64,000 nt of DNA, from IMG/VR virus record IMGVR_UViG_3300032050_000002. The stretch is one strand, 5' to 3'. Positions within the stretch are counted from its first letter, which is position 1, and the number at the start of each line of letters is the position of its first letter. This stretch comes from a virus (taxonomy: Duplodnaviria > Caudoviricetes). The notes under the pieces are model-generated. The model did not search any database. It saw only the letters and a program-made list of their open reading frames with translations, and was not told the origin of the DNA. Of the stretch, positions 44,682-63,562 are shown one piece after another. The position numbers and the translations under genes were made by a program.

Positions 44682-45431
44682 TTATTTAACCATTGCTTGT
44701 ATTAATTTTGCGTACATTACTTTGTATTTTTTCATAGACCCTCTAATTTCTTTTGTTGATAGATTTGTCATATCTCTTAATGTTAGTAATATAATATTTT
44801 TATTAAATTTATTATTATCACTACCCACAAAAATTTGGTCGTAGTTCTCAAATATAGAGTGTAATGCGTATCCTAATTTAACTTCGTTTTCGGTGAGCTC
44901 AGGTTTTTTAACAAATTCATCTAATTCATTTAAAAATTTAAATATTATTTGTTCAGACTCTAAGTTGTCTTTATCTATTCTATATGAAAATTCAGGATTA
45001 TTTTCCAAATCAGATGAGATATCTTCATATGATATTTTTCGATTTATCTCTTTTTGGTCTTTAATAATTTGACCCATTAGATAGTTTTTACATATAGTTC
45101 CAAAATAAGAATATGCTTTTTTTTCTTTTGATGGTTTAAATTTATCAATTTTGGTCATCAAAAACGAGTGGGTGTCAATATGAATCTCGTAAAAATCCAT
45201 ATCTTTTCTATATAATTTATATCTTCTAATAATTGAAGATATCATTTTGTCTAAAGGTTTTTTTAGAAACTCATTATAAATCTTATTTTTTTCTTCGAAG
45301 GAATTGGCTTCTAAAAATTTTAGAACGGCCAATTCTTCTTTAACATCAAAATAATTTGTTTGAGTTGGTTTTCTACCTTTCTTCTTTACTTCCGCATTCG
45401 TACTTCCAGTTAAATTTGGAGATTCGGTCAT
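44682..45431 (-). CDS. Phage late-transcription sigma factor (T4 gp55-like)
   Basis: Sigma region 2-like KIDKFKPSKEKKAYSYFGTICKNYL (cf. gp55 FDP...AYFTQI). Confidence 0.7.
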   Translation of the reverse strand: MTESPNLTGSTNAEVKKKGRKPTQTNYFDVKEELAVLKFLEANSFEEKNKIYNEFLKKPLDKMISSIIRRYKLYRKDMDFYEIHIDTHSFLMTKIDKFKPSKEKKAYSYFGTICKNYLMGQIIKDQKEINRKISYEDISSDLENNPEFSYRIDKDNLESEQIIFKFLNELDEFVKKPELTENEVKLGYALHSIFENYDQIFVGSDNNKFNKNIILLTLRDMTNLSTKEIRGSMKKYKVMYAKLIQAMVK

Positions 45432-46243
45432 TAATTAACTTCGGATTCATATTTTATGGCTCTATCATTAATAAAGAAATATTCTTTTTTAGCCGATTCA
45501 ATCCAAAAACGTACCTCATCGTCAGACAAAATAGAATCTCCATTTTTGTAATTCCAAAATATAGACCCTTCTCTAAGGTTAGTATGTTTATAACCAATCT
45601 TAGGTATTGTCATAATTTTTAACGAATTGTGAGTTAATCTTAAAAACATTTCATAACCAAAAGTTAATTTAAACGAACCTTTCAATCCTCCAAAATCAGT
45701 GAAAGATGATTTTTTAATCACCATACCTGATGGTTGAAAATTTTGATATGTTTGTAAAGTATCATTACTTAAAATTCCCATTTCAGAAGAAATATTAAGA
45801 GCGAATGTTGCTTCATTTGTAAAACCCGCAAAACTACCTTTTTCGTCAGTATCAACAACTATTGGTAGAAAGGCATCAACTTCAGGATAAACTTCTTCAT
45901 ATTTTTTAACTGATTTAAACCATATGTTAGAGTATTCATCGTCAAATTCAAAAATAGAAATCCATTTAGATTTTGAAATTCTAACTCCATAGTTTATTTG
46001 TTCTGAAAAATTAGGTTCTTTAGTCCAAGAATGTTTTACAACATTAAGGTCTCCAAAATCAAATCCATTTAGATACTCAACCAAAGAAGTTTCGTCTGTA
46101 TGAACAATTATTAATTCATTTATTTTTACTTTTTGTACCTTTAATGATTCGATACATTTTGTGAAATATTCTTCAAATCCTCTTGCTCCGATAGATTTAA
46201 TAGGTAATATTACCGATACGTCAAATTTTTCCATGTTATTCAA
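45431..46243 (-). CDS. GT2-family glycosyltransferase
   Basis: VSVILPI, QINYG, IFEFDDEY DxD motif. Confidence 0.8.
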   Translation of the reverse strand: MNNMEKFDVSVILPIKSIGARGFEEYFTKCIESLKVQKVKINELIIVHTDETSLVEYLNGFDFGDLNVVKHSWTKEPNFSEQINYGVRISKSKWISIFEFDDEYSNIWFKSVKKYEEVYPEVDAFLPIVVDTDEKGSFAGFTNEATFALNISSEMGILSNDTLQTYQNFQPSGMVIKKSSFTDFGGLKGSFKLTFGYEMFLRLTHNSLKIMTIPKIGYKHTNLREGSIFWNYKNGDSILSDDEVRFWIESAKKEYFFINDRAIKYESEVN

Positions 46244-47297
46244 TTGTTTCTAGTTTATTTAATTGTTCTTCAAAAGATACTAATCTTGTATTAATAAATT
46301 CTTCAAAAATAGATAAGGTTTTTTTATAAAAATCATCTTTAGTTAGTAATTCTGAAATTGTTTTTTTCATACCTTCATAAAGAGTTTCACTAACATTATC
46401 CTCCAACCAATTTTGTAAAAATTGAGATGTAAAATCAATTAATTGAAGTTTGTTATTTATCCAAAGACCATTATCTTCATTCATCCATTGAGGCACCATA
46501 CTAGGTACTAATCCTAAAACAGGAACTCCTGATTTCATAGATTCTAGTGGGAATGTTCCATAAGAACTTGTCTCATCAATCCATATTGATAAAAAACAAT
46601 CTTTAAAAGCGTTTGCAAATTCTTTCTCTGTTAAACCTCTCATATCTCTAAAAGTAATCCATCTATACTGAGGGTATTTAACGTAAAATGATTTAATAAA
46701 ATTTGCAGTATCTCTTTGTTCTCTTGAATGAATTGCGATTACAGGTTTTGCGGGATATTTTGTAGTTTCAAAATTTTCAGAAATAAAAGGAGGTAAAATA
46801 TCAAAAGAAACACCTCTCATAATTGTCTCAATATATTCTTTTTGTTTTTCAGATGTGGTAATACATTTATAAAAACCCAATTGAGTCCAAGTTTGTCCTG
46901 GCTGTAATGTTTCAAAAATATGGTCATACGCTTGAGATAAAACCACTTTCCCACAAGGAAGTTTTGTAATTTGGGGCATTACAAATCCAAATAATTCAGG
47001 AATTATAATAAAATCTTCGGGTGATACTTCTAAATTTTGACCCTCTATTGCTCTGTGGGGTAGTTTTTCCATATATTCTTTACCTAACCATCCAGCAACC
47101 CCAACGTAGTCTGGTTTTTCATGTAACATAATCGGATTAAATCCTCCACTCAGTAACGCCATTCCTAAATTGTAAATGTAAGAAATAGACGCTTTAGCAT
47201 TACCTTTAGTATCTTGAACTAAAAGATAAATTCTTGATTTTTTTTGTTTTAGGTTATCAATTGAACCCTCTAACTTTTTAATTTGCTCTTGTGTCAT
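46236..47297 (-). CDS. GT-B fold (GT4-like) glycosyltransferase
   Basis: ETSSYGTFPLESMKSGVPV matches the E-x7-E-A-M-x-x-G motif. Confidence 0.7.
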   Translation of the reverse strand: MTQEQIKKLEGSIDNLKQKKSRIYLLVQDTKGNAKASISYIYNLGMALLSGGFNPIMLHEKPDYVGVAGWLGKEYMEKLPHRAIEGQNLEVSPEDFIIIPELFGFVMPQITKLPCGKVVLSQAYDHIFETLQPGQTWTQLGFYKCITTSEKQKEYIETIMRGVSFDILPPFISENFETTKYPAKPVIAIHSREQRDTANFIKSFYVKYPQYRWITFRDMRGLTEKEFANAFKDCFLSIWIDETSSYGTFPLESMKSGVPVLGLVPSMVPQWMNEDNGLWINNKLQLIDFTSQFLQNWLEDNVSETLYEGMKKTISELLTKDDFYKKTLSIFEEFINTRLVSFEEQLNKLETIE

Positions 47298-47298
47298 A

Positions 47299-47580
47299 TT
47301 AGTATTTGTTTATTAATTTTTTATTTAAAAGACTGTTAAATGCTAATTTAAATGGCATTGATAATCCATTACTTGATTTTAAACCGAGAGTTTCGTCAGT
47401 CTCAGCGTCTTCAGTTAAAATTGTTTCAGTTAATAATTTAACCATATCATATCTTACAACACTGATTGTGTTTTGAGGTGCAGTTTCTCCCGAAAATTCA
47501 TCCAATGGTGTGTCAACATTTATATATTCTTCAATCTTATCTAAATCAAAGTAATAGTGTTCTCCTAAAATTTTTAACAT
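47299..47580 (-). CDS. Hypothetical protein
   Basis: 93-aa ORF in operon. Confidence 0.6.
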   Translation of the reverse strand: MLKILGEHYYFDLDKIEEYINVDTPLDEFSGETAPQNTISVVRYDMVKLLTETILTEDAETDETLGLKSSNGLSMPFKLAFNSLLNKKLINKY

Positions 47581-48176
47581 TATATTATTTGTTTTAATTT
47601 TTCCTCAAGCTCTTTTATCGTACTAATTGATAAATCACTTTCAGAATGTTTATTATAAACCGTATCAAATTTTATCACAATTTTATCTGACGGATATTCT
47701 AATAATAAGGCGGGATTTGCGGTAAGTAAAACGTCAATTTCATCCCACATTGAATTAATTGTATAATTACTATAAAATTTTACTTTTTCAAATTGACAAC
47801 CAAACTTAGATAAGAAAAAAAGAGTTGATGGTTTTGATTTACCAATCTCATCTGACACAATAATTAATTCGTGGTCTTCCCTTAATTTTAAATAAACTTC
47901 ATTTAAATCATTAAATGTGTTATATTCTGTTGATTGTGCGTGACCAAATATTTCCATTGGAAATTCTTCATAAAGAAATGAGTATAATTCTTCTTCATTT
48001 TGAAATTTTAAGTGGTCGGATAAATTTAAGGACTCTACAGGTAAAATCATTTCATATTTAAATTCACCGTTGTCTTCAATACCTTCAGTTTTATCAATTA
48101 AAAATTTTTGATAAGTTTGAGTAATTTTATCAATGGTATTTCGTAAAACCCCATTAACTTCAATACCTATTCTCAT
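47580..48176 (-). CDS. HAD-superfamily 5'(3')-deoxyribonucleotidase-like protein with degenerate motif I
   Basis: MRIGIEVNGVLRN in place of the DxDGVL motif. Confidence 0.6.
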   Translation of the reverse strand: MRIGIEVNGVLRNTIDKITQTYQKFLIDKTEGIEDNGEFKYEMILPVESLNLSDHLKFQNEEELYSFLYEEFPMEIFGHAQSTEYNTFNDLNEVYLKLREDHELIIVSDEIGKSKPSTLFFLSKFGCQFEKVKFYSNYTINSMWDEIDVLLTANPALLLEYPSDKIVIKFDTVYNKHSESDLSISTIKELEEKLKQII

Positions 48177-48898: not shown

Positions 48899-49549
48899 TT
48901 ATAGTTTTTGTTTATTTTTTAAATTATTTATTTTTTTAAAAACTTCTTTATTATTTATTTCTTTTTTCCATCTATCGTCTTTAGAAATTTTATTATAATA
49001 TGAAATAGTGTTATTCCATATTGCACATTTTTTATCATAGAATTCATATACTGAATTCCAAAAAAGAAAATCTTCTCTATTCACCCCTTCAAGGTAGAAA
49101 TTTGGCTTTTTACATTCTTTTAAACATTCATAATGAGATAACACATTTCCGGTATCAATAAAATTAAATTTTGGGGGACTTGCAATTAATCTTAATCTTC
49201 CGTCAGGATTAATTTGCTCCCCAATTAACATACCTTTAAAATTATTTTCTTCACATTCTTTATACTTTATATACATGTTTTCATGTAATAAAGTATCGTC
49301 ATCTAATATACAAAAATAACCATTATTTATTTTTGATAGAGCGTAATTTATTTTTGATACTTCATCAGTATCTTCACAATCAACATTGTATAATCTAACT
49401 CTTTTGTCATTTTTAATAAATTCTAAATCAATATCTTCTCTCTTATTTGACTTAGAAATATGCCAAGTGATGTCTTCATTAATTAAAATAGAATTATAAA
49501 TTGTTTCTAAATTTTCAAATCTATATAGTGCAGTTACAATATTTAACAT
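48899..49549 (-). CDS. GT-A fold glycosyltransferase (GT2-like)
   Basis: MLNIVTA, INYAL, CILDDD, IDTGN, EDFLFW. Confidence 0.75.
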   Translation of the reverse strand: MLNIVTALYRFENLETIYNSILINEDITWHISKSNKREDIDLEFIKNDKRVRLYNVDCEDTDEVSKINYALSKINNGYFCILDDDTLLHENMYIKYKECEENNFKGMLIGEQINPDGRLRLIASPPKFNFIDTGNVLSHYECLKECKKPNFYLEGVNREDFLFWNSVYEFYDKKCAIWNNTISYYNKISKDDRWKKEINNKEVFKKINNLKNKQKL

Positions 49550-49980
49550 TATTTAGTTTTAACAAATTTATACCAAACTCTTTCGTGTATAAAATACAAA
49601 ATCATTTTAGTTATGACCTCAGTTCCTCCTATTGCTAAACCTATTTTTAAATTACCTGTAAGTAACCAACTTATTAATGTCGTATCAATAGTACCAACAA
49701 TTCTCCAAGTTATTGTTTTTGCTAAATGTCTTGCTATAGTATTTTCTTTTTTTTCAGTCTTAATATGTGCAACATTATTTTCTAATTTTAGAACACCTTT
49801 ACAACTGATATGCCATTTATAATCATTTATTTCCAGAATCCAATCTTTTGTAGTGTACGTATTTCCATCAATAATAACGTCAGAAACTAAAATTTCGTTA
49901 CCATTTTCAAGTAATCTCCATCTTTCATTATCTTTAGTTGAATTAGTATTGTATCTAATTTGATATATTTTATTTTCCAT
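49549..49980 (-). CDS. Fusion: small N-terminal domain + DUF2061 membrane domain
   Basis: RHLAKTITWRIVGTIDT...LYFIHERVW is typical of DUF2061, which often lies beside cysC. Confidence 0.8.
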   Translation of the reverse strand: MENKIYQIRYNTNSTKDNERWRLLENGNEILVSDVIIDGNTYTTKDWILEINDYKWHISCKGVLKLENNVAHIKTEKKENTIARHLAKTITWRIVGTIDTTLISWLLTGNLKIGLAIGGTEVITKMILYFIHERVWYKFVKTK

Positions 49981-49983
49981 TTA

Positions 49984-50565
49984 TTATTTCAAGTTTAATT
50001 TATCATAAATAAAATGTGTGCAATCGTCAATTGAGTGTGATTTAGTTTTAACTCTTATTCTTGGATTTATTGGTTCTTCATAAGGAGAATCAATACCAGT
50101 AAACATTTTAATTTGACCCGCCCTTGCCTTTTTATAAAGACCTTTAGGGTCTCTATTTTCACAAACATCTAAAGGAGTATCTACAAAAACTTCTATAAAA
50201 TTTTCTTCACCAATTATTTTTTTGGATTCTTCTCTTTCATTAATAAATGGAGATATAAATGCGGTTATAACTATAAGTCCGGCATCGTTCATTAATTTAG
50301 AAATTTCGGCAATTCTTCTAATGTTTTCTTTTCTATCAGAATCTGAAAACCCCAAATCTTTATTTATCCCTAACCTAATATTATCACCATCTAAAATATA
50401 AGATAGTTTTCCTTTTTCATGTAATAAAATTGATAATTGATTTGCAATGGTTGATTTACCACTGCCAGATAAACCAGTCAACCAAACAACAAATGATTTT
50501 TGATTTAATAATTTTTCTCTATCCGATTTAGAAATTAATAACGTTTGTTTAAATATATTTTCCAT
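49984..50565 (-). CDS. cysC: Adenylyl-sulfate (APS) kinase
   Basis: WLTGLSGSGKST, LDGDNIR, ENIRR, FISP, RDPKGLYKKAR.G.I..FTGIDSPYE. Confidence 0.97.
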   Translation of the reverse strand: MENIFKQTLLISKSDREKLLNQKSFVVWLTGLSGSGKSTIANQLSILLHEKGKLSYILDGDNIRLGINKDLGFSDSDRKENIRRIAEISKLMNDAGLIVITAFISPFINEREESKKIIGEENFIEVFVDTPLDVCENRDPKGLYKKARAGQIKMFTGIDSPYEEPINPRIRVKTKSHSIDDCTHFIYDKLNLK

Positions 50566-50574
50566 TAAATAATA

Positions 50575-51177
50575 TTAGAACTCATATCCAAAATAATCAA
50601 TATCTCTTTTATACATATGATAAACTTTTTCGGCATCTGAGTCGCTATAGTAAGTTCTATAATGGTCGTGGTTAAATTTATTCCTACACTCTAAGTCTAA
50701 ACTAATATTTAGTTTGGTTGAAATGTTTCTATAATCATCATTAATATTTTCGTACCTACCAATGAAGTCAACATTTATATTTCCTTCTTTGTTTGTGAGA
50801 TAATCAAGTTGATTAAATGATATTGATTTTGGGTAATACTCTCCATTTGGATTGTCATGTCCGATTTTTTCTACAATAATTTCTGTAAGATTTAAAAATT
50901 CACTAAAATTTTTTGAATTGTTTAAAACATATTTTGAAAAGTCGTTGGAAACCTTTAAATTCAAAAACATGTTATACCAAGAAACTAATCTATCCCAAGG
51001 ATTCCTAACAAAAGAAAATTTAAAATAATTTTTATATTCATTTTCTAATTCAGTTATAAATGAATGTTTGTTTTTATATTTTATCCCCCCTGACTTTAAC
51101 ATATTTATACTTATAGATGTTCCGGCTGTTTTATGTATATGAACAAACACATATTTTTTATTATGATTAATAATCAT
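50575..51177 (-). CDS. Sulfotransferase (Sulfotransfer_2-like)
   Basis: 5'-PSB FVHIHKTAGTSI; 3'-PB FVRNPWDRLVSWY; FIGRYE; DIDYFGY. Confidence 0.9.
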   Translation of the reverse strand: MIINHNKKYVFVHIHKTAGTSISINMLKSGGIKYKNKHSFITELENEYKNYFKFSFVRNPWDRLVSWYNMFLNLKVSNDFSKYVLNNSKNFSEFLNLTEIIVEKIGHDNPNGEYYPKSISFNQLDYLTNKEGNINVDFIGRYENINDDYRNISTKLNISLDLECRNKFNHDHYRTYYSDSDAEKVYHMYKRDIDYFGYEF

Positions 51178-51379
51178 TTTTTCTATTATTTGATATTTTT
51201 AATATTTCATTATATAATGAATAATCTTCATCGTGAAAATCAATTATTTTTTTTAATAAAACATCATCCACGCTATAAAATTTGTTTTTGTTATTAACAT
51301 TTAAATTTAAAACTTTTAACGAGTGGGAAAAAGATACTCCCGTTGTTTTTGGTATATGTATATTAACTATTTTCATCAT
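51167..51379 (-). pseudogene. Internally deleted sulfotransferase (70 aa)
   Basis: Keeps IHIPKTTGVSF and a C-terminal I...H.ED..LY segment but lacks the R.P..R.S core. Confidence 0.55.
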
Positions 51380-51932
51380 AAAATCTATTTATTTTATTTT
51401 TTTGTTCTTCAGTTAATTTAAATTCATACCTTTCATTATCAGGTTTAAGAGAATGAAAATTTGAAAGTCCAGTCATACCAAGATATTCCTCAATCGATTT
51501 AACGTCAAAGAAATTAAATATCTTAATATCTTTACTAATTTCACCGTTTTCACCAATAATAAATTCTTTATAGTGTAAATTGTGATTATCGAAAATCAAT
51601 GAATTTTTTTTATCTAAAAAATAATTTAAAAAAATGTCAAAATTTTCAACGTATTGTTCTAAACCATTAGAATATTTTCTTAAATAAAAATATTCTGAAA
51701 TAACTCTATCAATATTTGGTCTAATTACAGTAAAAATTTTATTAGTTAATAATCCCATCTCTTTAAGTTCTCTATAGGTACAGTGTTGAGGACTATGACC
51801 ATTTATATAACCTTGTTTTCTAACAGAACGAAATTTCACATCATATCCGTTATCCTTAACAAATTTCTCAATAGAATCTCCACCTGTTTTTGGAATATGG
51901 ATAAATGTTATTTCGTCATTAAAAATCGGCAT
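51363..51932 (-). CDS. Sulfotransferase (Sulfotransfer_2-like)
   Basis: FIHIPKTGGDSI; IRPNIDRVISEY. Confidence 0.88.
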   Translation of the reverse strand: MPIFNDEITFIHIPKTGGDSIEKFVKDNGYDVKFRSVRKQGYINGHSPQHCTYRELKEMGLLTNKIFTVIRPNIDRVISEYFYLRKYSNGLEQYVENFDIFLNYFLDKKNSLIFDNHNLHYKEFIIGENGEISKDIKIFNFFDVKSIEEYLGMTGLSNFHSLKPDNERYEFKLTEEQKNKINRFYDENS

Positions 51933-52871: not shown

Positions 52872-52876
52872 TTATT

Positions 52877-53967: not shown

Positions 53968-53968
53968 T

Positions 53969-54589: not shown

Positions 54590-54593
54590 TTTT

Positions 54594-55280: not shown

Positions 55281-55281
55281 G

Positions 55282-56004: not shown

Positions 56005-56007
56005 TTT

Positions 56008-56691: not shown

Positions 56692-56696
56692 AATAT

Positions 56697-57452
56697 TTAA
56701 ATTTTATTATTAATTAATTTTTTATGACTTTCATCATAATCAACATGGTGGGTTTGAGTTCCGTGCGAATTTAATTGGAAGTGTTTTATTAATCCACTGG
56801 TTAATTTCATTTTTTTATTTTTTATTAAATAGAAAAATGAAATTGCTCTTTCTTGAGCGTGACCACAATATTCATCCTCTTTTATTTCGTCTATTAATGG
56901 TTCAAACCAATTCATATATTCGTTAAAAATTTCTTTTTTAAATGTTATGTTATTAGTTGATGACCAAAATGAATCCGGATATGTTTTAACGATAGAATCA
57001 ATAATATTTTTTACATCTAAGTTATGTATTTTTTTAATTGCCGGTAATACACTTCTAACCCAATTATTGTTATTAATAAAATGGTAATTATCTAATCTAA
57101 TTGGAACATACCCAACCAAGTCACAATCTTCATTGAAGAAGTTATCTATTATTGTTTCAAACTGTTCTGATAATACTACATCGTATTCAATTAACGAAAC
57201 ATAATCTGTAGTCACCAAATTATTTTTCCAAATCATATACCATCCTGTAAATGCGGTAAAAAGAGGATAGTCTTCTAAATTTTCTTTAAAATTTCTTGCG
57301 ATTAATACATTTTTTAAATTACTAATTTTGGAAACGTCTTTTTTACCAACAAAAACATAACAATAATCTTTTAAATTTTTAAATTTATTATTTTGTTCAA
57401 ATTGTAAAAGAAGTTCTTGGTCGTGAATAAATATAAATGTTTTATGTGTCAT
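56697..57452 (-). CDS. Putative GT-A glycosyltransferase (DUF4422-like)
   Basis: LIEYD, NNITFKKE.F..Y..W, ERAISFF. Confidence 0.55.
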   Translation of the reverse strand: MTHKTFIFIHDQELLLQFEQNNKFKNLKDYCYVFVGKKDVSKISNLKNVLIARNFKENLEDYPLFTAFTGWYMIWKNNLVTTDYVSLIEYDVVLSEQFETIIDNFFNEDCDLVGYVPIRLDNYHFINNNNWVRSVLPAIKKIHNLDVKNIIDSIVKTYPDSFWSSTNNITFKKEIFNEYMNWFEPLIDEIKEDEYCGHAQERAISFFYLIKNKKMKLTSGLIKHFQLNSHGTQTHHVDYDESHKKLINNKI

Positions 57453-58954
57453 TGTTTAATAAATTTTTTTAAATATTTTAAATTATCAATTACAAATGGA
57501 GTTAGGTTTTCTAAATAATCCTTCTCTTCTCTTTCTTTTCTTTCAGGCTCATTTTTTCTTGTTTGACTTTCTAAATGATATGCTACTAAATTACTATCAC
57601 AATAATTAACATAACCTAAAGTTAGACATTTACAATTTAGTTCAAAATCTTCTAAATGTATATCATATTTTTCATTAAAATATCCACAAATTTCAAAAAC
57701 TTTTTTTCTAATCATTAACAATGCTGCGGTAGAACCAAGAACATCGTGTAAATTAACTGAATGATTGTAATAATGTTTAGCACCAAAATGTTTTAAAACA
57801 AATACTTTAAACTTATCAAAAAACGGCGTAATACCATCATGTTGCACTGTATTATCTTCATAATGAAGTCTTGCGCCAACAGTTCCGGTATTTTTATTAT
57901 TTTTAAATGTATTTAACATTCCATATATAACGTTATTTAACACAACAATATCATTATTACAAAATAGTAAAAACTCGTATTCACTGTTAACATGGTTTTT
58001 AACCACGTCATTATTTATTTTTGCAAAATTATAATAATCGTATTCTATTAATTTTATATTACCCAACTTTAATATATTAGTTTTAATATATTCTTTTTCA
58101 TCAGGTTCAGAACCCGTATCGGCAATAAAAATGTCAAATAGATTAGAGTTACAATTTTGGTAGAAAGATTTAATACAATTCTCCAACATCTCAACTTTTC
58201 CTTTGGTTGGGATTATTACCGCTACTTTACCAATATTTTTTATTGGTCGTTCTTTAATTTGAGGTATATAAATTTTTTCAGGTTTTAAATCTAACGGTAG
58301 TTTACTTCCCCATTTTTCCAAAAATTTTGATTTTGATGTAAAAAACTCATGATTGGGTTGACCCACAGATTCGTGAGTAATTTCAAAAGAAGATGTAACA
58401 CCTATTTTAATACCATCCAAATAATTAGGAATACAAAAAGAATGGTCATAAAAATGAAATCTACCTATAGTCTCATCAAAATTATGTTTAATTTTTCTTT
58501 TATCAAAAGAAATAAAAAGACCATCAATTGTTACAACGGAAACTAAAAAAGGTAATTTCGGAGAATACCTACTTAACCATTTCTTTTGTCCTTGAGGTTG
58601 ATGATAAACTTGCCCAACCATAGTCTCTTTCATTTTCTCCCAGTAAATTCCTGATTCAGGAAAATAACAACTACCTGCCTTTCCGATTATGCCGAAGTCT
58701 GAATTATTAGAATAATCTTCTAATAATTTTTTACCCCAATTTTTTTCTAATTTTATATCATTATGACAACATACAACAATATCATATATCGATTCATTAA
58801 TTCCTTTGTTGTAAATTTCAGCTAAAGAATATTGGTTATGATTTAAATATTCTAAGATTTGAACGTCTTTAATACCAACACTTTTAACTAAATGTTCTTT
58901 AAATTTAAGATTATAATCTAAATCTTTATGAGTGGAATAAATTATTGTTATCAT
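57449..58954 (-). CDS. Two-domain glycosyltransferase (GT2_5-like + GT2)
   Basis: VCCHNDI...DGLF...FHFYD domain, then VIIPTK..IADTGS..NFAKINN..FCNND..EDFEL domain. Confidence 0.85.
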   Translation of the reverse strand: MITIIYSTHKDLDYNLKFKEHLVKSVGIKDVQILEYLNHNQYSLAEIYNKGINESIYDIVVCCHNDIKLEKNWGKKLLEDYSNNSDFGIIGKAGSCYFPESGIYWEKMKETMVGQVYHQPQGQKKWLSRYSPKLPFLVSVVTIDGLFISFDKRKIKHNFDETIGRFHFYDHSFCIPNYLDGIKIGVTSSFEITHESVGQPNHEFFTSKSKFLEKWGSKLPLDLKPEKIYIPQIKERPIKNIGKVAVIIPTKGKVEMLENCIKSFYQNCNSNLFDIFIADTGSEPDEKEYIKTNILKLGNIKLIEYDYYNFAKINNDVVKNHVNSEYEFLLFCNNDIVVLNNVIYGMLNTFKNNKNTGTVGARLHYEDNTVQHDGITPFFDKFKVFVLKHFGAKHYYNHSVNLHDVLGSTAALLMIRKKVFEICGYFNEKYDIHLEDFELNCKCLTLGYVNYCDSNLVAYHLESQTRKNEPERKEREEKDYLENLTPFVIDNLKYLKKFIKQ

Positions 58955-59550
58955 ATACCAGTACTTCCAAATCCGTTATTACCTCTATCTTTTTCAGGAA
59001 GAACATTCCTTTCAACCAAGTCAACCCACTTACCATTAACCACAGGACATAAAACCGCTTGCGCAATTTTCATCCCCTTTTTAATTGTAAATGGTTCTTT
59101 ATTTGTGTTAAAAAGTATAACTTTAACCTCACCCAAATACCCGCTATCAACTGTGCCAGGTGAATTAAGACACATTAACCCTTGATTAATCGCTAACCCA
59201 CTTTTACTTCTAACTTGAATTTCATATCCGTCTTTGATGTCAAAAGATAATCCTGTTGGAATTAACGCTCTTCCTAAACCTACAATAGTAATTTCTTCTG
59301 TAGAGTATAAATCAAACCCTGAATCCGATTCATAATTATAGTATGGTGATGTTGAATCGTCATTAACTCTATAATATCCCAATTCTAATTTTCCAGTATG
59401 GTTAATCATGTCAGACTCAAGAGCTTTGATATCGACACCGTATTCATCATAGATAATATCAAAATCAATATCTTCTTTATTGTCGGATAAATAACTATTA
59501 AGTTTATCCAAGTCTTCTTTTAATTTGTTAAAATCAGGTTCTTTAATCAT
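58951..59550 (-). CDS. dut: dUTPase (trimeric type)
   Basis: SGFDL, RSKSGLA, GTVDSGYLGE, KIAQ, RGNNGFGSTG. Confidence 0.95.
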   Translation of the reverse strand: MIKEPDFNKLKEDLDKLNSYLSDNKEDIDFDIIYDEYGVDIKALESDMINHTGKLELGYYRVNDDSTSPYYNYESDSGFDLYSTEEITIVGLGRALIPTGLSFDIKDGYEIQVRSKSGLAINQGLMCLNSPGTVDSGYLGEVKVILFNTNKEPFTIKKGMKIAQAVLCPVVNGKWVDLVERNVLPEKDRGNNGFGSTGI

Positions 59551-60248
59551 TTTAAATCTTTTAATTTTTTAATTATTTCTATTAATACATTAACATCTTT
59601 TTCGCAATACTCTGAAATTTTTTCCAAACTTTTTTCACGCCAATAATATTCATGAATATTTTCTCCCGTAACCTCCCCATTTTTTGGCGTCTCAATTCCA
59701 AGACAAGAGCATAATAAATCCAATGAACCTATAGAACTATATGACCCGTATTGCCATATCTCTTTGGTGTCAATCGCCTTAACCTCCCAAGGTTTTGTGT
59801 CGTATGAAGGTAATATTGATGGTGGTAAAATACCATTAATAATCATTCTTTTTGCAAGGACAGGAATATCAAAGTTTTTTAAATTATGCCCACAAAGAAA
59901 GAAATCTAATTTACCACATCTATCAAGTAATTTTTGAACACCGATTAAGATTTCTTTTTCGTCATGACCTGAAAATGTTTGTTTTTTAACATCACCATTA
60001 TCCATTACAAACGCAACACTAACACAAATAATTTTTGAAAATTCAGGTACAAGACCTGAACGTTTAGAAAACATATCATTAATGTTTAATGAGGAATCTT
60101 CAGGAAATCTTTTTTGAAACCAATCGAAGTATTTTTCAAATCTGTTGGCTAATTCAGGTTTTGATTCACCACAAGAATTAAAATCTTTACATCCTCCGAC
60201 AGTTTCAATATCGATAAATAAAATTTTTGTTATTGGAATTTTTATCAT
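59547..60248 (-). CDS. PolB-type 3'-5' exonuclease (stand-alone DEDD)
   Basis: FIDIET, GHNLKNFDIP, IDT, YCEKDV. Confidence 0.88.
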   Translation of the reverse strand: MIKIPITKILFIDIETVGGCKDFNSCGESKPELANRFEKYFDWFQKRFPEDSSLNINDMFSKRSGLVPEFSKIICVSVAFVMDNGDVKKQTFSGHDEKEILIGVQKLLDRCGKLDFFLCGHNLKNFDIPVLAKRMIINGILPPSILPSYDTKPWEVKAIDTKEIWQYGSYSSIGSLDLLCSCLGIETPKNGEVTGENIHEYYWREKSLEKISEYCEKDVNVLIEIIKKLKDLK

Positions 60249-61459
60249 TTTACTAAAGTTTTATACCAATCTGCTCTATTCTTTGTAACATTTTTAAGAT
60301 GATATGTATCTTTAACTGTTTCATATAATCTATTACCCATGTCTTCAATCATATTTGGATTTTGAATTAATTTCTTAATGTATTTGTTCCAATCACTATG
60401 ATTTCTTGATTCTTCAACTAATAAAGCGTTACCATTAACAAAGTTACCATCTTTTAATGAATGTGTCAAGTCAATTGTATAAGGACCCACTTTTGAAGCT
60501 ATTAATGCTTTTTTATAGAAACCTGCTTCAATAACTTTTAATTGAGATTTAACTCGGTTGAAAATATGATTTTTAATTGGGGCTAAAGATATGTCAAACT
60601 TTGAATAGTTTTTAGCGTAAGATGTTACAGGTAAAGTCCAAACTCTTCTATAAGGTATTGTTGTATCAGAAGTATACTCTTCTTGTTTAAATTCTAATAA
60701 GAAATTTTTATAGTTTTCATCAACAATTTTATAATTGTTTGTAAATATTTCTTCATATCTTGCCCAAACAGTTTCATGTGGTTTAATATCTCTTTTCTTT
60801 TGTTCCCCCGTTTCTTTATTAATTTCCGTTACAGTTCCTCTAAGGTCAAATCCACATACAACGTATTGAACTTTATCATTAAACTCTGAGTTTTTAGAAA
60901 CCATACCATCTAATAACATTAAATCGTGTAAGTGAGAAGAACCTCCTAACCAACCAATTCTAATCTTATCTGAAGGTAGTGTTGGCTCTTTAAATTGAGG
61001 TTCATCAGGATTTATTGCATTTGGAAAAACCTCAACGTTTTTATTTAATTTTCTAATTTCATCCGCAAATACCCTTGTAGTTGTTGTAACATAACTAGCG
61101 GCTCTAAGATTGGCCATAATTTTTTGGTCAATCTTGTTTTGAACAATTATGCTATGTATCGGATGTTCTTTTGTTGGTAACCAATAGTCGTCCAAGTCTA
61201 CAATAACGACAATTCCCATAGATTTTAAATGATTGATTAAATTAGGTACTTGGTCATAATCTTGACCAACACTTCTGTGAATATGGACTATCTGATATTT
61301 TTTCCAAAAATTTATATCATTCGCTTTTGGTTCATAATCAATATCCACATGAAAATCATCGGGATACATATTTTGTAACATTACATGAGGGTCTACTGAA
61401 CGGAACTTCCCAACTCCTGTTTTGTCTGAAGGGATAACTAAAACATTAATTTTTGACAT
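60245..61459 (-). CDS. GT-B fold (GT4-like) glycosyltransferase
   Basis: DLDDYW, IGWLGGSSHLHD, DISLAP, KSQLKVIEAG. Confidence 0.85.
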   Translation of the reverse strand: MSKINVLVIPSDKTGVGKFRSVDPHVMLQNMYPDDFHVDIDYEPKANDINFWKKYQIVHIHRSVGQDYDQVPNLINHLKSMGIVVIVDLDDYWLPTKEHPIHSIIVQNKIDQKIMANLRAASYVTTTTRVFADEIRKLNKNVEVFPNAINPDEPQFKEPTLPSDKIRIGWLGGSSHLHDLMLLDGMVSKNSEFNDKVQYVVCGFDLRGTVTEINKETGEQKKRDIKPHETVWARYEEIFTNNYKIVDENYKNFLLEFKQEEYTSDTTIPYRRVWTLPVTSYAKNYSKFDISLAPIKNHIFNRVKSQLKVIEAGFYKKALIASKVGPYTIDLTHSLKDGNFVNGNALLVEESRNHSDWNKYIKKLIQNPNMIEDMGNRLYETVKDTYHLKNVTKNRADWYKTLVK

Positions 61460-61540
61460 AATTTTATTTTCTTTTATAAGAGAAAATATAATATATTAAG
61501 TTGTTTAAATCAATGTTATTATTATAGATTTATAATTATT

Positions 61541-63562
61541 TTATGTTATAAGATTTTTTTCTAAAAACTCGGACAATTTGTCTAAATTAAATTTATCTAA
61601 CATTTTTTGTTTCGTTATTTTTATTTTTTCTTCAAAAAAATTATAATTGTTGTAAACTTCCAATATTTTTTTTGAAGCGTCATCAATATCTGGCTCGGCC
61701 CAATTAGATTTATTGTTTAGTTCAAGATATGCGTTATGACTTGCATCAATCTTTGTAAGATTATAATTAACTAATTGACAATTTTCGTCACAAAAGTCTA
61801 AATTACCTGAAAAATTTGTGCAAACAACAGGAATTTCTAAATTTATTGCCTCCATCATTGTTAACCCTAAACCTTCTGAACGATGTAAAGAAATATATAA
61901 ATCAGCACTGTTAAATAAATCTGAAATTGATTCTCTATCTAATGTTTTATTAATTAAGATAATTCTATCATCTTTAAACTCGTTATGATTAATAAAATCA
62001 TTGTCATTACAATTATGAGTTTTAATAATTAAAACAACGTTTTCATCATTATGAAACGTTTTTTTAAATGACTTAATTGTCGCAAAAGGATTTTTTCTAC
62101 TAACATCACTACCGTAATCAAATGAAAATAGACAAACAAATTTACCATCAAACCCTAATTTTTTTTTAATATTATCTTTATTTTTTTTATCAAAAAAATC
62201 TGTAGGTATATTTAAAGTTTTTATGTTTTTGTTTAAAATATTTCTTTTAAAAGAATCTTCACAAAATTTGGAGATTGTCCAAATTTCATCAAATATTTTA
62301 GATTCTTTAATCCAAGTATCCGGAACATCGGGTAGTTCCCATGCCCATAATACAATATTATATTTATCTTTAATATAATTTTCACCAACAAGGTTTAAAA
62401 ACTTTGTCTCAGGATTACATATTATTAAATTACTATTGAAATAATTAAATTCTTCATTTAACATATAATTTTTATCGTTAAATGAATTTGGGAGATTTAT
62501 ATTAAAAGGTATTTTAGATTTTTTAAGTGATTTTATCACACTTCTCATGATTTGACCTAATCCGCTATCAGTATTTCCATATCCATATAGATTAACACCT
62601 TTAAACTTTTTTAAAAATCTTTCAAAAAGATTATCATCAAAAAAACTATCGACAAATGGTTGATGACACCCAAAAGTATCATCATAAAATTCGTGTTCAA
62701 AAGAAAATTTTTTACAAATTTCAACATTAGGTATATTATATTTATTTATTTTTCTAATAAAATATGAAAAAAACAAATCTTCGTAGTTTTGGTCGATGTC
62801 CGATGGTTTAACACTAAATGAATTATAATTTTTTATAATTTCAATCATAGCGTTTACCGACCTTAAACTTAATCCTCCATTACCAAAATAAACATCAAAA
62901 TCTAAATTATAGTCTTTTTTTATTGAGTCGGAATGTGCAGATGGTCCCCAAGGAGCACCAATATAATCCCATTCTAAAAAAGAGTTGTCAAATTCTTTAA
63001 AAATAAAAGTGTCTGATTGATAAATTAATACTTTCTCACAAGAAATTTTTTCCCAAAATTCCAAACTTAATAGAAGATTATTATATGAATTTCTATCTAT
63101 TTTTTTGTTTTCTAAATTAATGATTTCAATATTAGGTGATATTTCTTTTTTTAAATTTTTAATTTCATTAAAATTATTGTTTCCGCAAAAAATAATATGA
63201 CCCCACCCGTCACCCAACTTTTGTATAGTATTTTTTATTGTGAATTCAATCTGTTTGTTCCATCTAGTTTCAACTATTACAGATTTATTTTTAGAATTTT
63301 CAGATATTTTAGGGAAATTAGGTTCTAAATAACCTAATAATTTTTCACATAAATTATTAAATATTTTAATTTTATTCTCTTTATTTTTTAAAGATAACCA
63401 TTTTTCATTTTTTTTATACAATCTATTTTCTTTACGTCCATAATTAAGATAATGGTGAGTAACTCTTTCTTTTGTTATTATCCCCGCTTTTTTTAAATCA
63501 GGATTATATTTCAAATATAATTTCCAATCAAAGTCTTCAGGTAAAGTTTTATAATTATCCAT
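61541..63562 (-). CDS. Multidomain glycosyltransferase: FDWKxY...HY..YG repeat + DUF5672-like GT-A + GT4
   Basis: FDWKLYLKYNPDL..HYLNYG; YQSD..DYIGAPW..NGGLSLR..EDLFF; WAWE..SLHRSEGLGL..EA. Confidence 0.85.
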   Translation of the reverse strand: MDNYKTLPEDFDWKLYLKYNPDLKKAGIITKERVTHHYLNYGRKENRLYKKNEKWLSLKNKENKIKIFNNLCEKLLGYLEPNFPKISENSKNKSVIVETRWNKQIEFTIKNTIQKLGDGWGHIIFCGNNNFNEIKNLKKEISPNIEIINLENKKIDRNSYNNLLLSLEFWEKISCEKVLIYQSDTFIFKEFDNSFLEWDYIGAPWGPSAHSDSIKKDYNLDFDVYFGNGGLSLRSVNAMIEIIKNYNSFSVKPSDIDQNYEDLFFSYFIRKINKYNIPNVEICKKFSFEHEFYDDTFGCHQPFVDSFFDDNLFERFLKKFKGVNLYGYGNTDSGLGQIMRSVIKSLKKSKIPFNINLPNSFNDKNYMLNEEFNYFNSNLIICNPETKFLNLVGENYIKDKYNIVLWAWELPDVPDTWIKESKIFDEIWTISKFCEDSFKRNILNKNIKTLNIPTDFFDKKNKDNIKKKLGFDGKFVCLFSFDYGSDVSRKNPFATIKSFKKTFHNDENVVLIIKTHNCNDNDFINHNEFKDDRIILINKTLDRESISDLFNSADLYISLHRSEGLGLTMMEAINLEIPVVCTNFSGNLDFCDENCQLVNYNLTKIDASHNAYLELNNKSNWAEPDIDDASKKILEVYNNYNFFEEKIKITKQKMLDKFNLDKLSEFLEKNLIT

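What the first reader, a model, noticed from the sequence alone, without database searches (positions are those of the whole stretch)
45431..63562. Phage-encoded sulfated, methylated glycan pathway (~9 GTs, 4 MTases, APS kinase, 2 intact sulfotransferases)
Seen: cysC, DUF2061, sulfotransferases, an epimerase, methyltransferases and GTs, all co-oriented and without signal peptides; no ATP sulfurylase, flippase or polymerase in the window. Established: CysC makes PAPS, the sulfotransferase donor. Inference: the phage taps host APS to build a cytoplasmic sulfated and methylated glycan. The most likely target is virion proteins (as in glycosylating giant viruses), since the cluster lies directly upstream of and co-oriented with the late sigma and baseplate genes. 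Host envelope or DNA modification are alternatives.
Basis: partly seen in the sequence, partly recalled or inferred. Interest (0 to 1): 0.75.

Follow-up and report, generated by a model that had tools for sequence, protein, structure and literature searches.

The report
Phage sugar-chain island with sulfation genes
An uncultured giant lake phage carries about nine sugar-adding enzymes, three or four methylating enzymes and its own supply line for activated sulfate feeding two sugar-sulfating enzymes, so it probably builds a sulfated, methylated sugar chain, a capacity not described for phages, although what that chain is attached to is still unknown.

Summary
On the minus strand of 45431-63562 lie an intact APS kinase (CysC), its DUF2061 partner, two complete carbohydrate-type sulfotransferases with a truncated third between them, one SDR "epimerase", three firm and one candidate methyltransferase, and nine glycosyltransferase-like genes. 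None has a signal peptide or membrane span. PhoH, dUTPase and an exonuclease are interspersed.

Comparisons support a sulfation module. CysC-DUF2061 is paired or fused in 17 of 18 related phage contigs. The ST2-ST1 pair recurs on many contigs. 382 IMG/VR contigs carry ST1 relatives, often in arrays, and their identifiable neighbours are mainly glycosyltransferases and methyltransferases.

Published work reads freshwater phage cysC as a sulfur-assimilation gene and calls the role of phage sulfotransferases unclear. Feeding phage sulfotransferases is therefore a new reading, with a parallel in giant-virus glycan clusters.

Pro/Thr-stalk proteins are encoded nearby. However, the cluster lacks the phage's late-promoter motif, the "late sigma and baseplate" neighbours gave no family match, and other viral sulfotransferase loci show no such stalk proteins. 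Remodelling of the host envelope is a serious rival.

The scan had noted this stretch before, and one withheld follow-up overlaps or touches it.

The parts
61541..63562 (-). First gene of the unit: two-domain glycosyltransferase, DUF5672 (GT-A fold) plus a GT4 C-terminal domain. It has a ~45-aa N-terminal motif shared with other GTs that sit beside sulfotransferases.
   Evidence: Pfam DUF5672 5.7e-34 and Glycos_transf_1 5.3e-11. The model of residues 60-330 has pLDDT 90.3. Its best PDB matches are B3GalT5, glycogenin and BoGT6a, probability 1.00. Homolog beside ST1 in L199. N-terminal motif hits in L199 and L027-29.
63603..63628 (-). Terminator-like hairpin just upstream of the first cluster gene
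60245..61459 (-). GT-B (GT4-like) glycosyltransferase
   Evidence: phrog_7162 glycosyltransferase 1.2e-43; weak NCBIfam C-terminal GT4 matches; 55% homolog in L107
59547..60248 (-). PolB-exo-like 3'-5' exonuclease (not a glycan gene)
   Evidence: Pfam DNA_pol_B_exo2 1.5e-12
58951..59550 (-). dUTPase (not a glycan gene)
   Evidence: Pfam dUTPase 8.1e-24
57449..58954 (-). Two-domain GT2 glycosyltransferase
   Evidence: Pfam Glyco_tranf_2_5 3e-21 and Glycos_transf_2 1.3e-12; 52% homolog next to CysC in L006-L011 and L031
56697..57452 (-). Possible DUF4422-type glycosyltransferase (weak)
   Evidence: Pfam DUF4422 1.4e-4, 22.2 bits against a cut-off of 25
56008..56691 (-). GT-A fold nucleotide-sugar transferase (GT34/GT8-like)
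   Evidence: Atlas structure TM 0.91 to a GT34 cluster and to GT2 and GT10 multidomain viral proteins; feature score 0.95
55282..56004 (-). SAM methyltransferase of the CmcI / sugar O-methyltransferase type
   Evidence: Pfam Methyltransf_24 1e-12; RMNT_CmcI 1.8e-3
54594..55280 (-). DUF6165/GT9-like single Rossmann domain, probably GT-related
   Evidence: Atlas TM 0.84 to a DUF6165 cluster and 0.68 to GT9; feature scores 0.91-0.92
53969..54589 (-). SAM methyltransferase
   Evidence: Pfam Methyltransf_23 3.7e-13; 29% homolog near DUF2061-CysC in a Bacteroidetes genome, L177
53368..53967 (-). Candidate fourth methyltransferase (unconfirmed)
   Evidence: N-terminal 'VFVETGTYMGD' SAM-loop-like motif; homologs in viral sulfotransferase loci L084, L113 and L107; no Pfam hit
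52877..53392 (-). SAM methyltransferase
   Evidence: Pfam Methyltransf_23 1e-9 and Methyltransf_11 7.6e-6
52029..52823 (-). Short SDR of the epimerase/dehydratase/reductase family, with YxxxK (YIESK) present and a degenerate glycine loop
   Evidence: Pfam Epimerase 1.4e-7, residues 36-176; sequence read
52842..52871 (-). Orphan copy of the first ~30 nt of the ST2 gene, upstream of the SDR gene (insertion scar)
   Evidence: Direct comparison, 28 of 30 identical
51363..51932 (-). Sulfotransferase 2 (ST2), a divergent Sulfotransfer_2, with both PAPS-binding motifs
   Evidence: phrog_3347 7.4e-7. 61 homologs; those at 40-51% identity carry PF03567. Motifs IHIPKTGGDS and RPNIDRVIS. Paired with ST1 in L199 and L200.
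51167..51379 (-). 70-aa truncated sulfotransferase remnant that keeps the IHIPKTTGVS loop
   Evidence: Gene call in L019; translation and weak BLAST to ST1 and ST2
50575..51177 (-). Sulfotransferase 1 (ST1), a compact 200-aa carbohydrate-type Sulfotransfer_2
   Evidence: Pfam 6.4e-15. 3559 homologs. Invariant K16/T17/G19/S21 and R58/N59/P60/R63/S66. Model pLDDT 90.7. All top PDB hits are PAPS sulfotransferases. CHST14 and others at E 1.7e-6, TM 0.66-0.69.
49984..50565 (-). APS kinase CysC (makes PAPS)
   Evidence: Pfam APS_kinase 4.1e-68; 55-68% identical to bacterial CysC; motifs intact
49549..49980 (-). DUF2061 protein, the conserved partner of CysC: an 85-aa N-terminal domain plus an amphipathic DUF2061 hairpin
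   Evidence: Pfam 2.9e-23. Present beside CysC in 17 of 18 viral loci. Fused to CysC in L016. Beside CysC in Flavobacteriales/Bacteroidetes MAGs.
48899..49549 (-). Small GT2-like protein with a DxD motif, unusually well conserved
   Evidence: 'FCILDDDT' motif; 214 homologs at 58-72% identity, a few with PF00535
48173..48898 (-). PhoH-like ATPase (not a glycan gene)
   Evidence: Pfam PhoH 7.7e-66
47299..48176 (-). Two ORFs of unknown role (198 aa and 93 aa)
   Evidence: No hit in Pfam, NCBIfam or PHROGs
46236..47297 (-). GT-B (GT4-like) glycosyltransferase (a lead)
   Evidence: Atlas feature scores 0.97-0.99 to Glycos_transf_1 clusters; no Pfam hit
45431..46243 (-). GT2 glycosyltransferase, the last gene of the block
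   Evidence: Pfam Glycos_transf_2 2.4e-5, 24.8 bits against a cut-off of 23.3
19738..20220 (+). Candidate acceptor: 160-aa protein with a (PT)n tract, in the structural gene block
   Evidence: A 30-residue window with 90% P/T/S

Best explanation
The block is a phage-borne glycan-building and glycan-tailoring island that works in the cytoplasm of the infected cell, probably a member of the Bacteroidota.

Proposed steps:
1. Nine soluble glycosyltransferase-like genes, with about eleven GT domains, assemble an oligosaccharide from host nucleotide sugars. One SDR adjusts a sugar.
2. Three or four SAM methyltransferases O-methylate the glycan.
3. The phage's own APS kinase, working with its DUF2061 partner, converts APS to PAPS.
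4. Two different CHST-like carbohydrate sulfotransferases use that PAPS to sulfate two positions of the glycan.

Shown: the identity and intact motifs of CysC and of both sulfotransferases, the GT and MT assignments, the lack of membrane or export parts, and the recurrence of the same combination in other phages.

Inferred: that these genes form one pathway, where the APS comes from, and the acceptor. My best guess for the acceptor is the phage's own Pro/Thr-stalk proteins of the virion. That would give the particle a methylated, sulfated, mucin-like coat.
For: Sulfation arm:
- CysC, E 4e-68, with intact motifs.
- ST1: Pfam 6e-15, invariant PAPS-binding residues, sulfotransferase fold, nearest reviewed structures CHST14/10/9/8/11.
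- ST2 is a divergent member of the same family.
- The ST2-ST1 pair is kept at 45-60% identity on about 18 shared contigs.
- CysC-DUF2061 is adjacent or fused in 17 of 18 viral loci.

Independent recurrence of CysC with sulfotransferases, GTs and MTs:
- L032: DUF2061-CysC-ST next to UGDH, epimerase, GLF and GT4.
- L040: ST-ST-CysC with GT2 and Methyltransf_24.
- L199: four sulfotransferases, DUF2061, five GTs.
- Among the 114 nearest non-sulfotransferase neighbours in 38 viral loci, GT and MT families dominate the Pfam hits.

Not an assimilation module: PAPS reductase is absent from five relatives, and no CysD, CysN or Sat is in the window.

For a virion or phage-protein acceptor:
- The 18 kb holds no phosphoglycosyl transferase, flippase, polymerase, transporter or any membrane span.
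- (PT)n-tract proteins are encoded 3-6 kb upstream and in the structural block.
- The unknown GT-like proteins have their nearest Atlas clusters in viruses, including giant viruses. Giant-virus fibril-glycan clusters also combine GTs, methyltransferases and sulfate-metabolism genes (PMC9614988).
Against: - Nothing links any enzyme here to a protein acceptor, and no recognisable initiating protein O-GT lies in the block.
- The cluster has no sense-strand copy of the late-type motif that precedes the structural genes.
- It is interleaved with PhoH, dUTPase and an exonuclease, which suggests early or middle expression.
- None of 78 other viral sulfotransferase loci has a PT-tract protein within 10 kb.
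- The ST2-ST1 pair also sits in an ordinary bacterial chromosome context (L200). Two viral sulfotransferase loci have a Wzx-type flippase domain beside the sulfotransferase.
- Four of the nine GT calls are leads only.
- The APS source is unknown.
- No expression data could be obtained.
Confidence: 0.45

Rival explanations
1. Host envelope remodelling. The soluble phage GTs, methyltransferases and sulfotransferases act at the inner face of the membrane on the host's own lipid-linked LPS, capsule or O-glycan intermediates. Host machinery then exports the product. The changed, sulfated surface blocks superinfection or stops progeny from re-adsorbing to debris.
For: - This is the published reading of large GT clusters in T4-like and jumbo cyanophages (PMC7824862).
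- Most GTs of bacterial surface-glycan pathways are soluble too, so the lack of membrane spans does not exclude it.
- The ST2-ST1 pair occurs in a bacterial chromosome (L200), and tandem ST1-type sulfotransferases occur in L024.
- DUF2061-CysC looks host-derived: about 63% identity to Flavobacteriales MAGs with the same pairing.
- A Wzx-type domain neighbours the sulfotransferase in 2 of 38 viral loci.
- The cluster lacks the late-promoter motif.
- Gene content differs strongly between related phages, as it does in surface-glycan islands.
Against: - No initiating transferase, flippase, polymerase, ligase or transporter lies in the 18 kb or elsewhere in the window.
- Nine GT-like genes suggest building a glycan from scratch. 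Seroconverting phages, as far as I know, manage with one to three genes.
- The nearest relatives of several GT-like proteins are viral rather than bacterial.
- The phage looks lytic and T4-like.
Confidence: 0.3
2. Not one pathway. The stretch is a variable region where unrelated glyco-genes and auxiliary genes have piled up. CysC acts as a general sulfur-metabolism booster, as published. The GTs and methyltransferases serve several separate targets.
For: - PhoH, dUTPase, an exonuclease and unknown ORFs are interspersed.
- An insertion scar and a truncated sulfotransferase show cassette turnover.
- 48899-49549 is far more conserved than its neighbours.
- The literature reads freshwater phage cysC as an assimilation gene (PMC10914622).
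- G001 and G002 carry CysC but no PF03567 sulfotransferase in the parts held.
Against: - CysC lies directly beside two sulfotransferases here and in L032 and L040.
- No cysH was found in five relatives.
- The genes are tightly packed, co-oriented and often overlapping, from one terminator onward.
- The neighbours of viral sulfotransferases are consistently GTs and MTs.
Confidence: 0.12
3. DNA hypermodification. The GTs decorate a hydroxymethylated base in phage DNA, and the methyltransferases and sulfotransferases tailor that DNA-linked sugar.
For: - The cluster shares its unit with dUTPase, an exonuclease and PhoH, and lacks the late motif. I recall the T4 DNA glucosyltransferase genes being early genes as well.
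- Phage GT-A and GT-B enzymes that put varied glycans on 5hmC are known (10.1101/2023.12.21.572611).
- A sulfotransferase sits among replication genes in Stenotrophomonas phage DLP6.
- 48899-49549 has DDD and EDF motifs.
Against: - No thymidylate-synthase-like hydroxymethylase or 5mYOX lies in or beside the cluster. Those are the neighbours that mark the DNA glycosylation pathways surveyed in that paper.
- The only thyA note for this genome lies about 45 kb before the window and is unchecked.
- Nine GTs and four MTs seem far more than a DNA sugar modification would need, and the preprint's text never mentions sulfate.
Confidence: 0.05
4. The sulfotransferases sulfate something other than a sugar, such as hydroxylated residues of a collagen-like or tail-collar protein, or a small metabolite. 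The GTs are unrelated to them.
For: - Bacterial operons that join sulfotransferases, PAPS synthetases and hydroxylases with tail-collar or collagen-like proteins have been predicted to sulfate proteins (PMC2938197).
- A collagen-repeat protein lies near ST-ST-CysC in L040.
Against: - ST1 belongs to Sulfotransfer_2, and its closest reviewed structures are all carbohydrate sulfotransferases.
- No dioxygenase or hydroxylase was found in the cluster.
- Viral sulfotransferases are flanked mainly by GTs.
Confidence: 0.05

Closest known systems
Glycogene clusters of giant viruses (Megavirinae fibril glycosylation: Moumouvirus australiensis Ma457/Ma461, Cotonvirus ORFs 724/725, Tupanvirus SAT/APS kinase R499; PMC9614988)
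   Same: A virus-encoded cluster with single- and multi-domain GTs, methyltransferases and sulfate-metabolism genes, and no export machinery. Several GT-like proteins here have their nearest Atlas clusters among Nucleocytoviricota (DUF6165, DUF1647, GT10 fusions, Methyltransf_24). In both cases sulfation of the glycan is inferred and not shown.
   Different: This is a tailed phage of bacteria. It has almost no nucleotide-sugar synthesis genes (one SDR only). It has APS kinase alone, without a sulfurylase in view. It carries two dedicated CHST-like sulfotransferases next to the kinase. The acceptor is unknown, whereas in mimiviruses the glycans are known to sit on fibrils.
LPS / capsular polysaccharide gene clusters of T4-like and jumbo cyanophages (e.g. 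P-SSM2; Iyer et al. 2021, PMC7824862)
   Same: A large, variable block of paralogous GTs, epimerase-family enzymes and O-methyltransferases in a large T4-like phage. Function untested.
   Different: That review's text never mentions sulfate, PAPS or sulfotransferases. The cyanophage clusters carry fuller sets of sugar-making enzymes. Here the distinctive part is the CysC-DUF2061-sulfotransferase arm.
Phage cysC as an auxiliary metabolic gene (62 cysC-encoding freshwater phage genomes; Chen and Banfield 2024, PMC10914622)
   Same: The same kind of gene in the same kind of phage: large freshwater phages.
   Different: That work reads it as assimilatory sulfate reduction and does not mention sulfotransferases or DUF2061. 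Here cysC sits beside two sulfotransferases, and no cysH was found in relatives.
Animal carbohydrate sulfotransferases CHST8-14 (Sulfotransfer_2, PF03567)
   Same: The same Pfam family, the same PAPS-binding motifs, and the best structural match (E 1.7e-6, TM by query 0.6-0.69).
   Different: The phage enzymes are 189-200 aa cores without a membrane anchor or stem. Identity is 14-20%. The acceptor sugar and position are unknown. No solved structure matches by sequence.
Virion glycosylation operons of mycobacteriophages
   Same: Phage-encoded GTs, in some phages together with an O-methyltransferase, that decorate capsid and tail proteins.
   Different: As I recall, those are a few genes inside the structural operon. 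Sulfation is not known there.

Membership tests
APS kinase (CysC, PF01583, EC 2.7.1.25) | Profile score above the curated cut-off over the full domain | tested here: met
   228.7 bits against a cut-off of 21.1; profile positions 1-152 of 152
APS kinase (CysC, PF01583, EC 2.7.1.25) | P-loop and substrate motifs (GxxGxGKS/T, DGD, FISP) | tested here: met
   GLSGSGKST, LDGDNIR and FISPF read in the sequence; 55-68% identity to bacterial CysC
APS kinase (CysC, PF01583, EC 2.7.1.25) | Phosphorylates APS to PAPS | not testable with these tools
   Needs an enzyme assay
Carbohydrate sulfotransferases (Sulfotransfer_2, PF03567) | Profile score above the cut-off | tested here: met
   ST1 scores 56.4 bits against a cut-off of 22. 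ST2 has no direct Pfam hit, but it matches phrog_3347 at 7e-7, and its homologs at 40-51% identity carry PF03567.
Carbohydrate sulfotransferases (Sulfotransfer_2, PF03567) | 5'-phosphosulfate loop (PKTGGTS type) and 3'-phosphate motif (RNPxxRxxS type) | tested here: met
   ST1: K16, T17, G19, S21 and R58, N59, P60, R63, S66 are invariant in 25 homologs. ST2: IHIPKTGGDS and RPNIDRVIS.
Carbohydrate sulfotransferases (Sulfotransfer_2, PF03567) | Sulfotransferase fold | tested here: met
   The model has pLDDT 90.7. All 50 best PDB matches are PAPS sulfotransferases, with weak E values. CHST14 matches at E 1.7e-6.
Carbohydrate sulfotransferases (Sulfotransfer_2, PF03567) | The acceptor is a sugar hydroxyl | not testable with these tools
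   Inferred from the family and from GT-rich neighbourhoods
Virus-encoded virion glycosylation cluster (giant-virus type) | A cluster of GTs with tailoring enzymes and no export genes | tested here: met
Virus-encoded virion glycosylation cluster (giant-virus type) | Own nucleotide-sugar synthesis pathway | tested here: not met
   Only one SDR (52029-52823). No dehydratase, aminotransferase or nucleotidyltransferase was found in the block.
Virus-encoded virion glycosylation cluster (giant-virus type) | The glycan is found on virion proteins | not testable with these tools
   Candidate (PT)n acceptors exist, but no link to them is shown
Wzx/Wzy- or ABC-dependent surface polysaccharide locus | Initiating phosphoglycosyl transferase, flippase or transporter, and polymerase | tested here: not met
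   No such Pfam family and no membrane span in 36.9-64 kb. The rest of the genome was not visible.
Phage DNA sugar hypermodification pathway | A hydroxymethyl-base-forming enzyme (ThyS-like or 5mYOX) next to the GTs | tested here: not met
   None in the block. The criterion is taken from 10.1101/2023.12.21.572611.
Assimilatory sulfate reduction gene set (cysDN/sat, cysC, cysH) | ATP sulfurylase and PAPS reductase alongside cysC | tested here: not met
   No CysD, CysN or Sat homolog in the window. PF01507 is absent from five related phage records. Those records, and this window, are incomplete.

The most novel reading that the evidence does not exclude
The cysC genes of large freshwater phages are currently counted as sulfur-assimilation helpers. 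In this reading they are instead the PAPS supply of phage-encoded carbohydrate sulfotransferases, and this phage coats its own particle (the Pro/Thr stalks) with a methylated, sulfated, mucin- or GAG-like glycan. That would be the first sulfated glycoconjugate made by a bacteriophage. Hundreds of other phages carrying sulfotransferase arrays would do something similar.
Probability: 0.3. Interest if true: 0.8.

Novelty: new variant of a known kind. Interest (0 to 1): 0.6.

Why it matters
Three things would follow if this is right.

1. **A common virome marker would change meaning.** Phage cysC would be read as a supplier for glycan chemistry rather than as a sulfur-assimilation helper.
2. **Phage sulfotransferases would get a role.** A 2023 paper states that their function 'remains unclear' (PMC10580990). 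I found relatives of ST1 on 382 IMG/VR contigs, often several per contig and up to eight in 20 kb.
3. **Glycan sulfation would extend to phages.** This modification, best known from animal matrix glycans, would reach bacteriophages. It could affect how phage particles or infected cells stick to mucus, particles and hosts.

The compact 190-200-aa soluble sulfotransferases and their partner kinase could also be useful tools for enzymatic sulfation.

Tried and rejected
- **Known phages:** a megablast of the 18 kb against 50,697 phage records found no match.
- **Own record:** an exact 39-mer search of IMG/VR did not find the window's record. No whole genome is held. L019 cannot serve as a handle. 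The rest of the genome of at least 307 kb therefore could not be searched for an ATP sulfurylase, PAP phosphatase, flippase or hydroxymethylase.
- **Expression:** no RNA holder was listed for the stretch.
- **PDB by sequence:** searches with four unknown proteins and with the ST1 profile gave nothing useful.
- **Defence systems:** PADLOC gave no match for ten cluster proteins.
- **phrog_3347:** it found nothing in five relatives, but nothing rang in the controls either, so this says nothing.
- **60245-61459:** I considered that its N-terminus might be a third sulfotransferase (BLAST 5e-4 to ST1). I rejected this because its 'PSDKTGVGK' start, as I read it, is the usual GT4 glycine loop, and PHROG calls the protein a glycosyltransferase.
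- **PT-stalk link:** I tested whether viral sulfotransferase loci in general sit beside PT-tract proteins. They do not (0 of 78).
- **Sigma-70-type promoter scan:** it gave no more sites than shuffled sequence (141 against 148 expected).

Full report
**What is there**

The window comes from an uncultured freshwater T4-like jumbo phage. It has a T4-type major head protein at 29909-31819. No whole genome is held. The exact proteins occur on many lake metagenome contigs, the longest of 307,689 bp.

From 36.9 kb to the end of the window every gene is on the minus strand. A terminator-like hairpin lies at 63628-63603. After it, a tightly packed and often overlapping string of genes runs from 63562 down to 45431.

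Profile searches, one Atlas call per unknown protein and two structure predictions give this map:
- **Glycosyltransferase-like genes (nine):**
  - 61541-63562: DUF5672 plus GT4.
  - 60245-61459: GT4-like.
  - 57449-58954: two GT2 domains.
  - 56697-57452: weak DUF4422.
  - 56008-56691: GT-A.
  - 54594-55280: DUF6165/GT9-like.
  - 48899-49549: small GT2-like protein with a DxD motif.
  - 46236-47297: GT4-like.
  - 45431-46243: GT2.
- **Methyltransferases:** three firm ones (55282-56004, 53969-54589, 52877-53392) and one candidate (53368-53967).
- **SDR:** one short enzyme of the epimerase family (52029-52823).
- **Sulfation arm:** ST2 (51363-51932), a 70-aa sulfotransferase remnant (51167-51379), ST1 (50575-51177), CysC (49984-50565) and a DUF2061 protein (49549-49980).

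I folded the DUF5672 domain from a 32-sequence alignment (pLDDT 90.3). It is a GT-A fold. Its best solved neighbours are B3GalT5, glycogenin and BoGT6a, at probability 1.00. In 41 long relatives it is fused mainly to GT4, WbsX and other GT domains. The first gene is therefore a two-domain glycosyltransferase.

None of the proteins has a 19-residue hydrophobic span or a signal-like N-terminus.

Two caveats apply:
- Four GT calls and one MT call are leads rather than curated hits.
- PhoH, dUTPase, a PolB-exo-like exonuclease and two unknown ORFs sit inside the block.

**The sulfation arm is real and conserved**

*CysC.* It scores 228.7 bits and keeps the P-loop and substrate motifs.

*ST1.* It belongs to a very large family of compact, roughly 200-aa Sulfotransfer_2 proteins, with 3559 hits.
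- Both PAPS-binding motifs are invariant in 25 homologs.
- The model is confident (pLDDT 90.7).
- All 50 best PDB matches are PAPS sulfotransferases, though with weak E values.
- The best reviewed neighbours are the catalytic domains of carbohydrate sulfotransferases CHST14, 10, 9, 8 and 11 (E 1.7e-6, TM by query 0.6-0.69).

*ST2.* It has no direct Pfam hit. It matches a PHROG annotated as galactose-3-O-sulfotransferase, it keeps both motifs, and its homologs at 40-51% identity carry PF03567.

*The pair.* Homologs of ST1 and ST2 share contig sizes in about 18 clusters. They are adjacent in a 141-kb phage contig (L199) and in a bacterial contig (L200). The pair has thus been kept together through divergence down to 45-60% identity.

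*DUF2061.* It accompanies CysC in 17 of 18 related IMG/VR loci and is fused to it in L016. Among the 80 bacterial loci with the closest CysC, it neighbours CysC in only 6, mostly Flavobacteriales or Bacteroidetes MAGs. This fits a Bacteroidota host and a host origin for the pair.

**CysC feeds sulfotransferases rather than assimilation**

- The window has no CysD, CysN or Sat homolog. Of 1,057 ORFs from bacterial cysC neighbourhoods, only the CysC parts hit the window, apart from one methyltransferase-like ORF that matches 53969-54589.
- Five related phage records have no PAPS reductase.
- The same combination recurs independently:
  - L032 has DUF2061-CysC-ST beside UDP-glucose dehydrogenase, an epimerase, UDP-galactopyranose mutase and a GT4.
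  - L040 has ST-ST-CysC with GT2 and Methyltransf_24.
  - L199 has four sulfotransferases, DUF2061 and five GTs, including a homolog of the DUF5672-GT4 protein directly beside ST1.
- In IMG/VR, 382 contigs encode an ST1 relative. Of the 78 loci fetched, 53 have at least two sulfotransferases, and L043 has eight.
- I scanned the 114 nearest non-sulfotransferase neighbours from 38 of these loci against Pfam. Glycosyltransferase and methyltransferase families lead the list.

Published work counts freshwater phage cysC as an assimilatory auxiliary gene and does not mention sulfotransferases (PMC10914622). A 2023 paper says the function of phage sulfotransferases 'remains unclear' (PMC10580990). 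No paper in the library uses any of four phrases for a phage- or virus-encoded sulfotransferase.

The nearest precedent is in giant viruses. Their fibril-glycan clusters include methyltransferases and sulfate-metabolism genes, from which sulfation has been suggested but not shown (PMC9614988).

**Where APS comes from is open**

In relatives, CysC is followed by, or fused to, a roughly 150-aa HxGH nucleotidyltransferase. L003 has the order CysC then nucleotidyltransferase, which I recall is also the domain order of animal PAPS synthase. CysC is often fused to a HAD-like domain as well.

An earlier follow-up of this scan, on another genome, argued that this small enzyme is a minimal ATP sulfurylase. 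I did not test that claim. The gene is not in this window, and the rest of the genome could not be searched.

**The target**

That does not hold up:
- Those genes gave no match in Pfam, PHROGs or PADLOC.
- The motif ATATTTATA occurs 18 times against 5.65 expected. It precedes the structural genes and 44282-44656 and 38948-40408.
- It never occurs on the sense strand within 45431-63562. Only two degenerate TATTTAT copies lie before starts there.
- The neighbouring late-type units thus have their own promoters. The cluster looks like a separate unit, possibly early or middle, shared with nucleotide-metabolism genes.

Other evidence keeps the virion reading alive:
- The divergent block 3-6 kb upstream encodes 339-aa and 946-aa proteins with long (PT)n tracts. 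A 160-aa (PT)n protein lies in the structural block at 19738-20220.
- No export or lipid-carrier gene lies in the 18 kb.
- Several GT-like proteins have mostly viral nearest relatives, some from giant viruses.

Evidence against it:
- None of 78 other viral sulfotransferase loci has a PT-tract protein within 10 kb.
- The ST2-ST1 pair and DUF2061-CysC look host-derived.
- A Wzx-type domain neighbours the sulfotransferase in two viral loci.
- The published reading of such clusters in large phages is host-surface modification (PMC7824862).

DNA modification is unlikely. No hydroxymethyl-base enzyme lies in or beside the block, and that neighbour is what marks known phage DNA glycosylation pathways.

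**Verdict**

- I put about 0.75 on the core claim: a phage-encoded glycan sulfation and methylation pathway fed by PAPS.
- I put 0.45 on the full statement, including a phage or virion protein as acceptor.
- I put 0.3 on host-envelope remodelling.
- The remainder covers a mixed bag of unrelated genes, DNA, or non-sugar acceptors.

This is a new variant of a known kind. Virus-encoded glycan clusters and phage cysC are each known. A phage module in which CysC and DUF2061 sit beside dedicated carbohydrate sulfotransferases inside a GT/MT island is not described in the papers I could search.

The scan's earlier notes already flagged this stretch and the sulfation module.

Noticed in passing
L003:9977-11026, L031:10001-10966 and 10971-11435, L016:9767-10939, L043:4764-5591: In related phages CysC is fused to, or followed by, a ~150-aa HxGH nucleotidyltransferase (motifs GRYQPYHYGH and ISATKIR). 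It is often fused to a HAD-like domain as well. L003 has the order kinase then nucleotidyltransferase, which I recall is also that of animal PAPS synthase. This is a candidate minimal ATP sulfurylase. It is absent from this window.
   Followed up: partly
L043 (IMG/VR 3300009508_002179), whole 20.6-kb locus: Eight ST1-type sulfotransferase genes within 20 kb of one viral contig, plus a CysC-nucleotidyltransferase fusion. 53 of 78 viral loci have two or more sulfotransferases.
   Followed up: partly
window 63416-63544 (residues 7-49 of the 673-aa protein); L199:9074-9202; L027:7888-8022: A ~45-residue N-terminal motif (DFDW.LYL.YNPDL...HY..YG..E.R) is shared by otherwise different glycosyltransferases that sit next to sulfotransferases. 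It may be a common docking or assembly module.
   Followed up: no
window 48899-49549: This small GT2-like protein is much better conserved than the rest of the island: 214 homologs, and the 120 listed are mostly 58-72% identical. That suggests a conserved substrate and perhaps a role separate from the variable glycan genes.
   Followed up: partly
window 52842-52871 versus 51903-51932: The first ~30 nt of the ST2 gene are repeated (28 of 30 identical) upstream of the SDR gene. This looks like a scar left when the SDR cassette was inserted in front of ST2.
   Followed up: yes
window 8403-10439 (minus strand): A 678-aa ClpB/ClpA-type double AAA+ chaperone (AAA_2 at 5e-68, ClpB_D2-small) is encoded by the phage.
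   Followed up: no
window 213-44669, 18 sites: ATATTTATA is three-fold enriched (18 against 5.65 expected). It lies 6-32 nt before the starts of structural genes on the coding strand. It is absent in the sense orientation from the glycan island.
   Followed up: yes
window 49726-49980 (N-terminal 85 residues of the DUF2061 protein); L031:11419-11886; L168, L177: The DUF2061 protein has an extra N-terminal domain. The domain aligns with the L031 phage homolog (52% over 143 residues). L168 and L177 gave much stronger DUF2061 scores (E about 1e-53 to 1e-55), which suggests those Flavobacteriaceae/Bacteroidetes genes share the domain too. Its fold and role are unknown.
   Followed up: no
L201 (Stenotrophomonas phage DLP6, KU682439.2 38223-38837): A cultured T4-like phage has a lone ST1-type sulfotransferase among replication genes (clamp loader, RegA, DNA polymerase). 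This gives a bench system for asking what phage sulfotransferases modify.
   Followed up: partly
window 29909-31819: The major head protein is 636 aa. The T4-type head domain matches only residues ~376-613, which leaves a long unexplained N-terminal part.
   Followed up: no
window 47580-48176: The N-terminus 'IGIEVNGVL' resembles what I recall as the HAD phosphatase motif DxDG, but with both acidic residues replaced. It may be an inactivated HAD-like protein. No profile hit.
   Followed up: no
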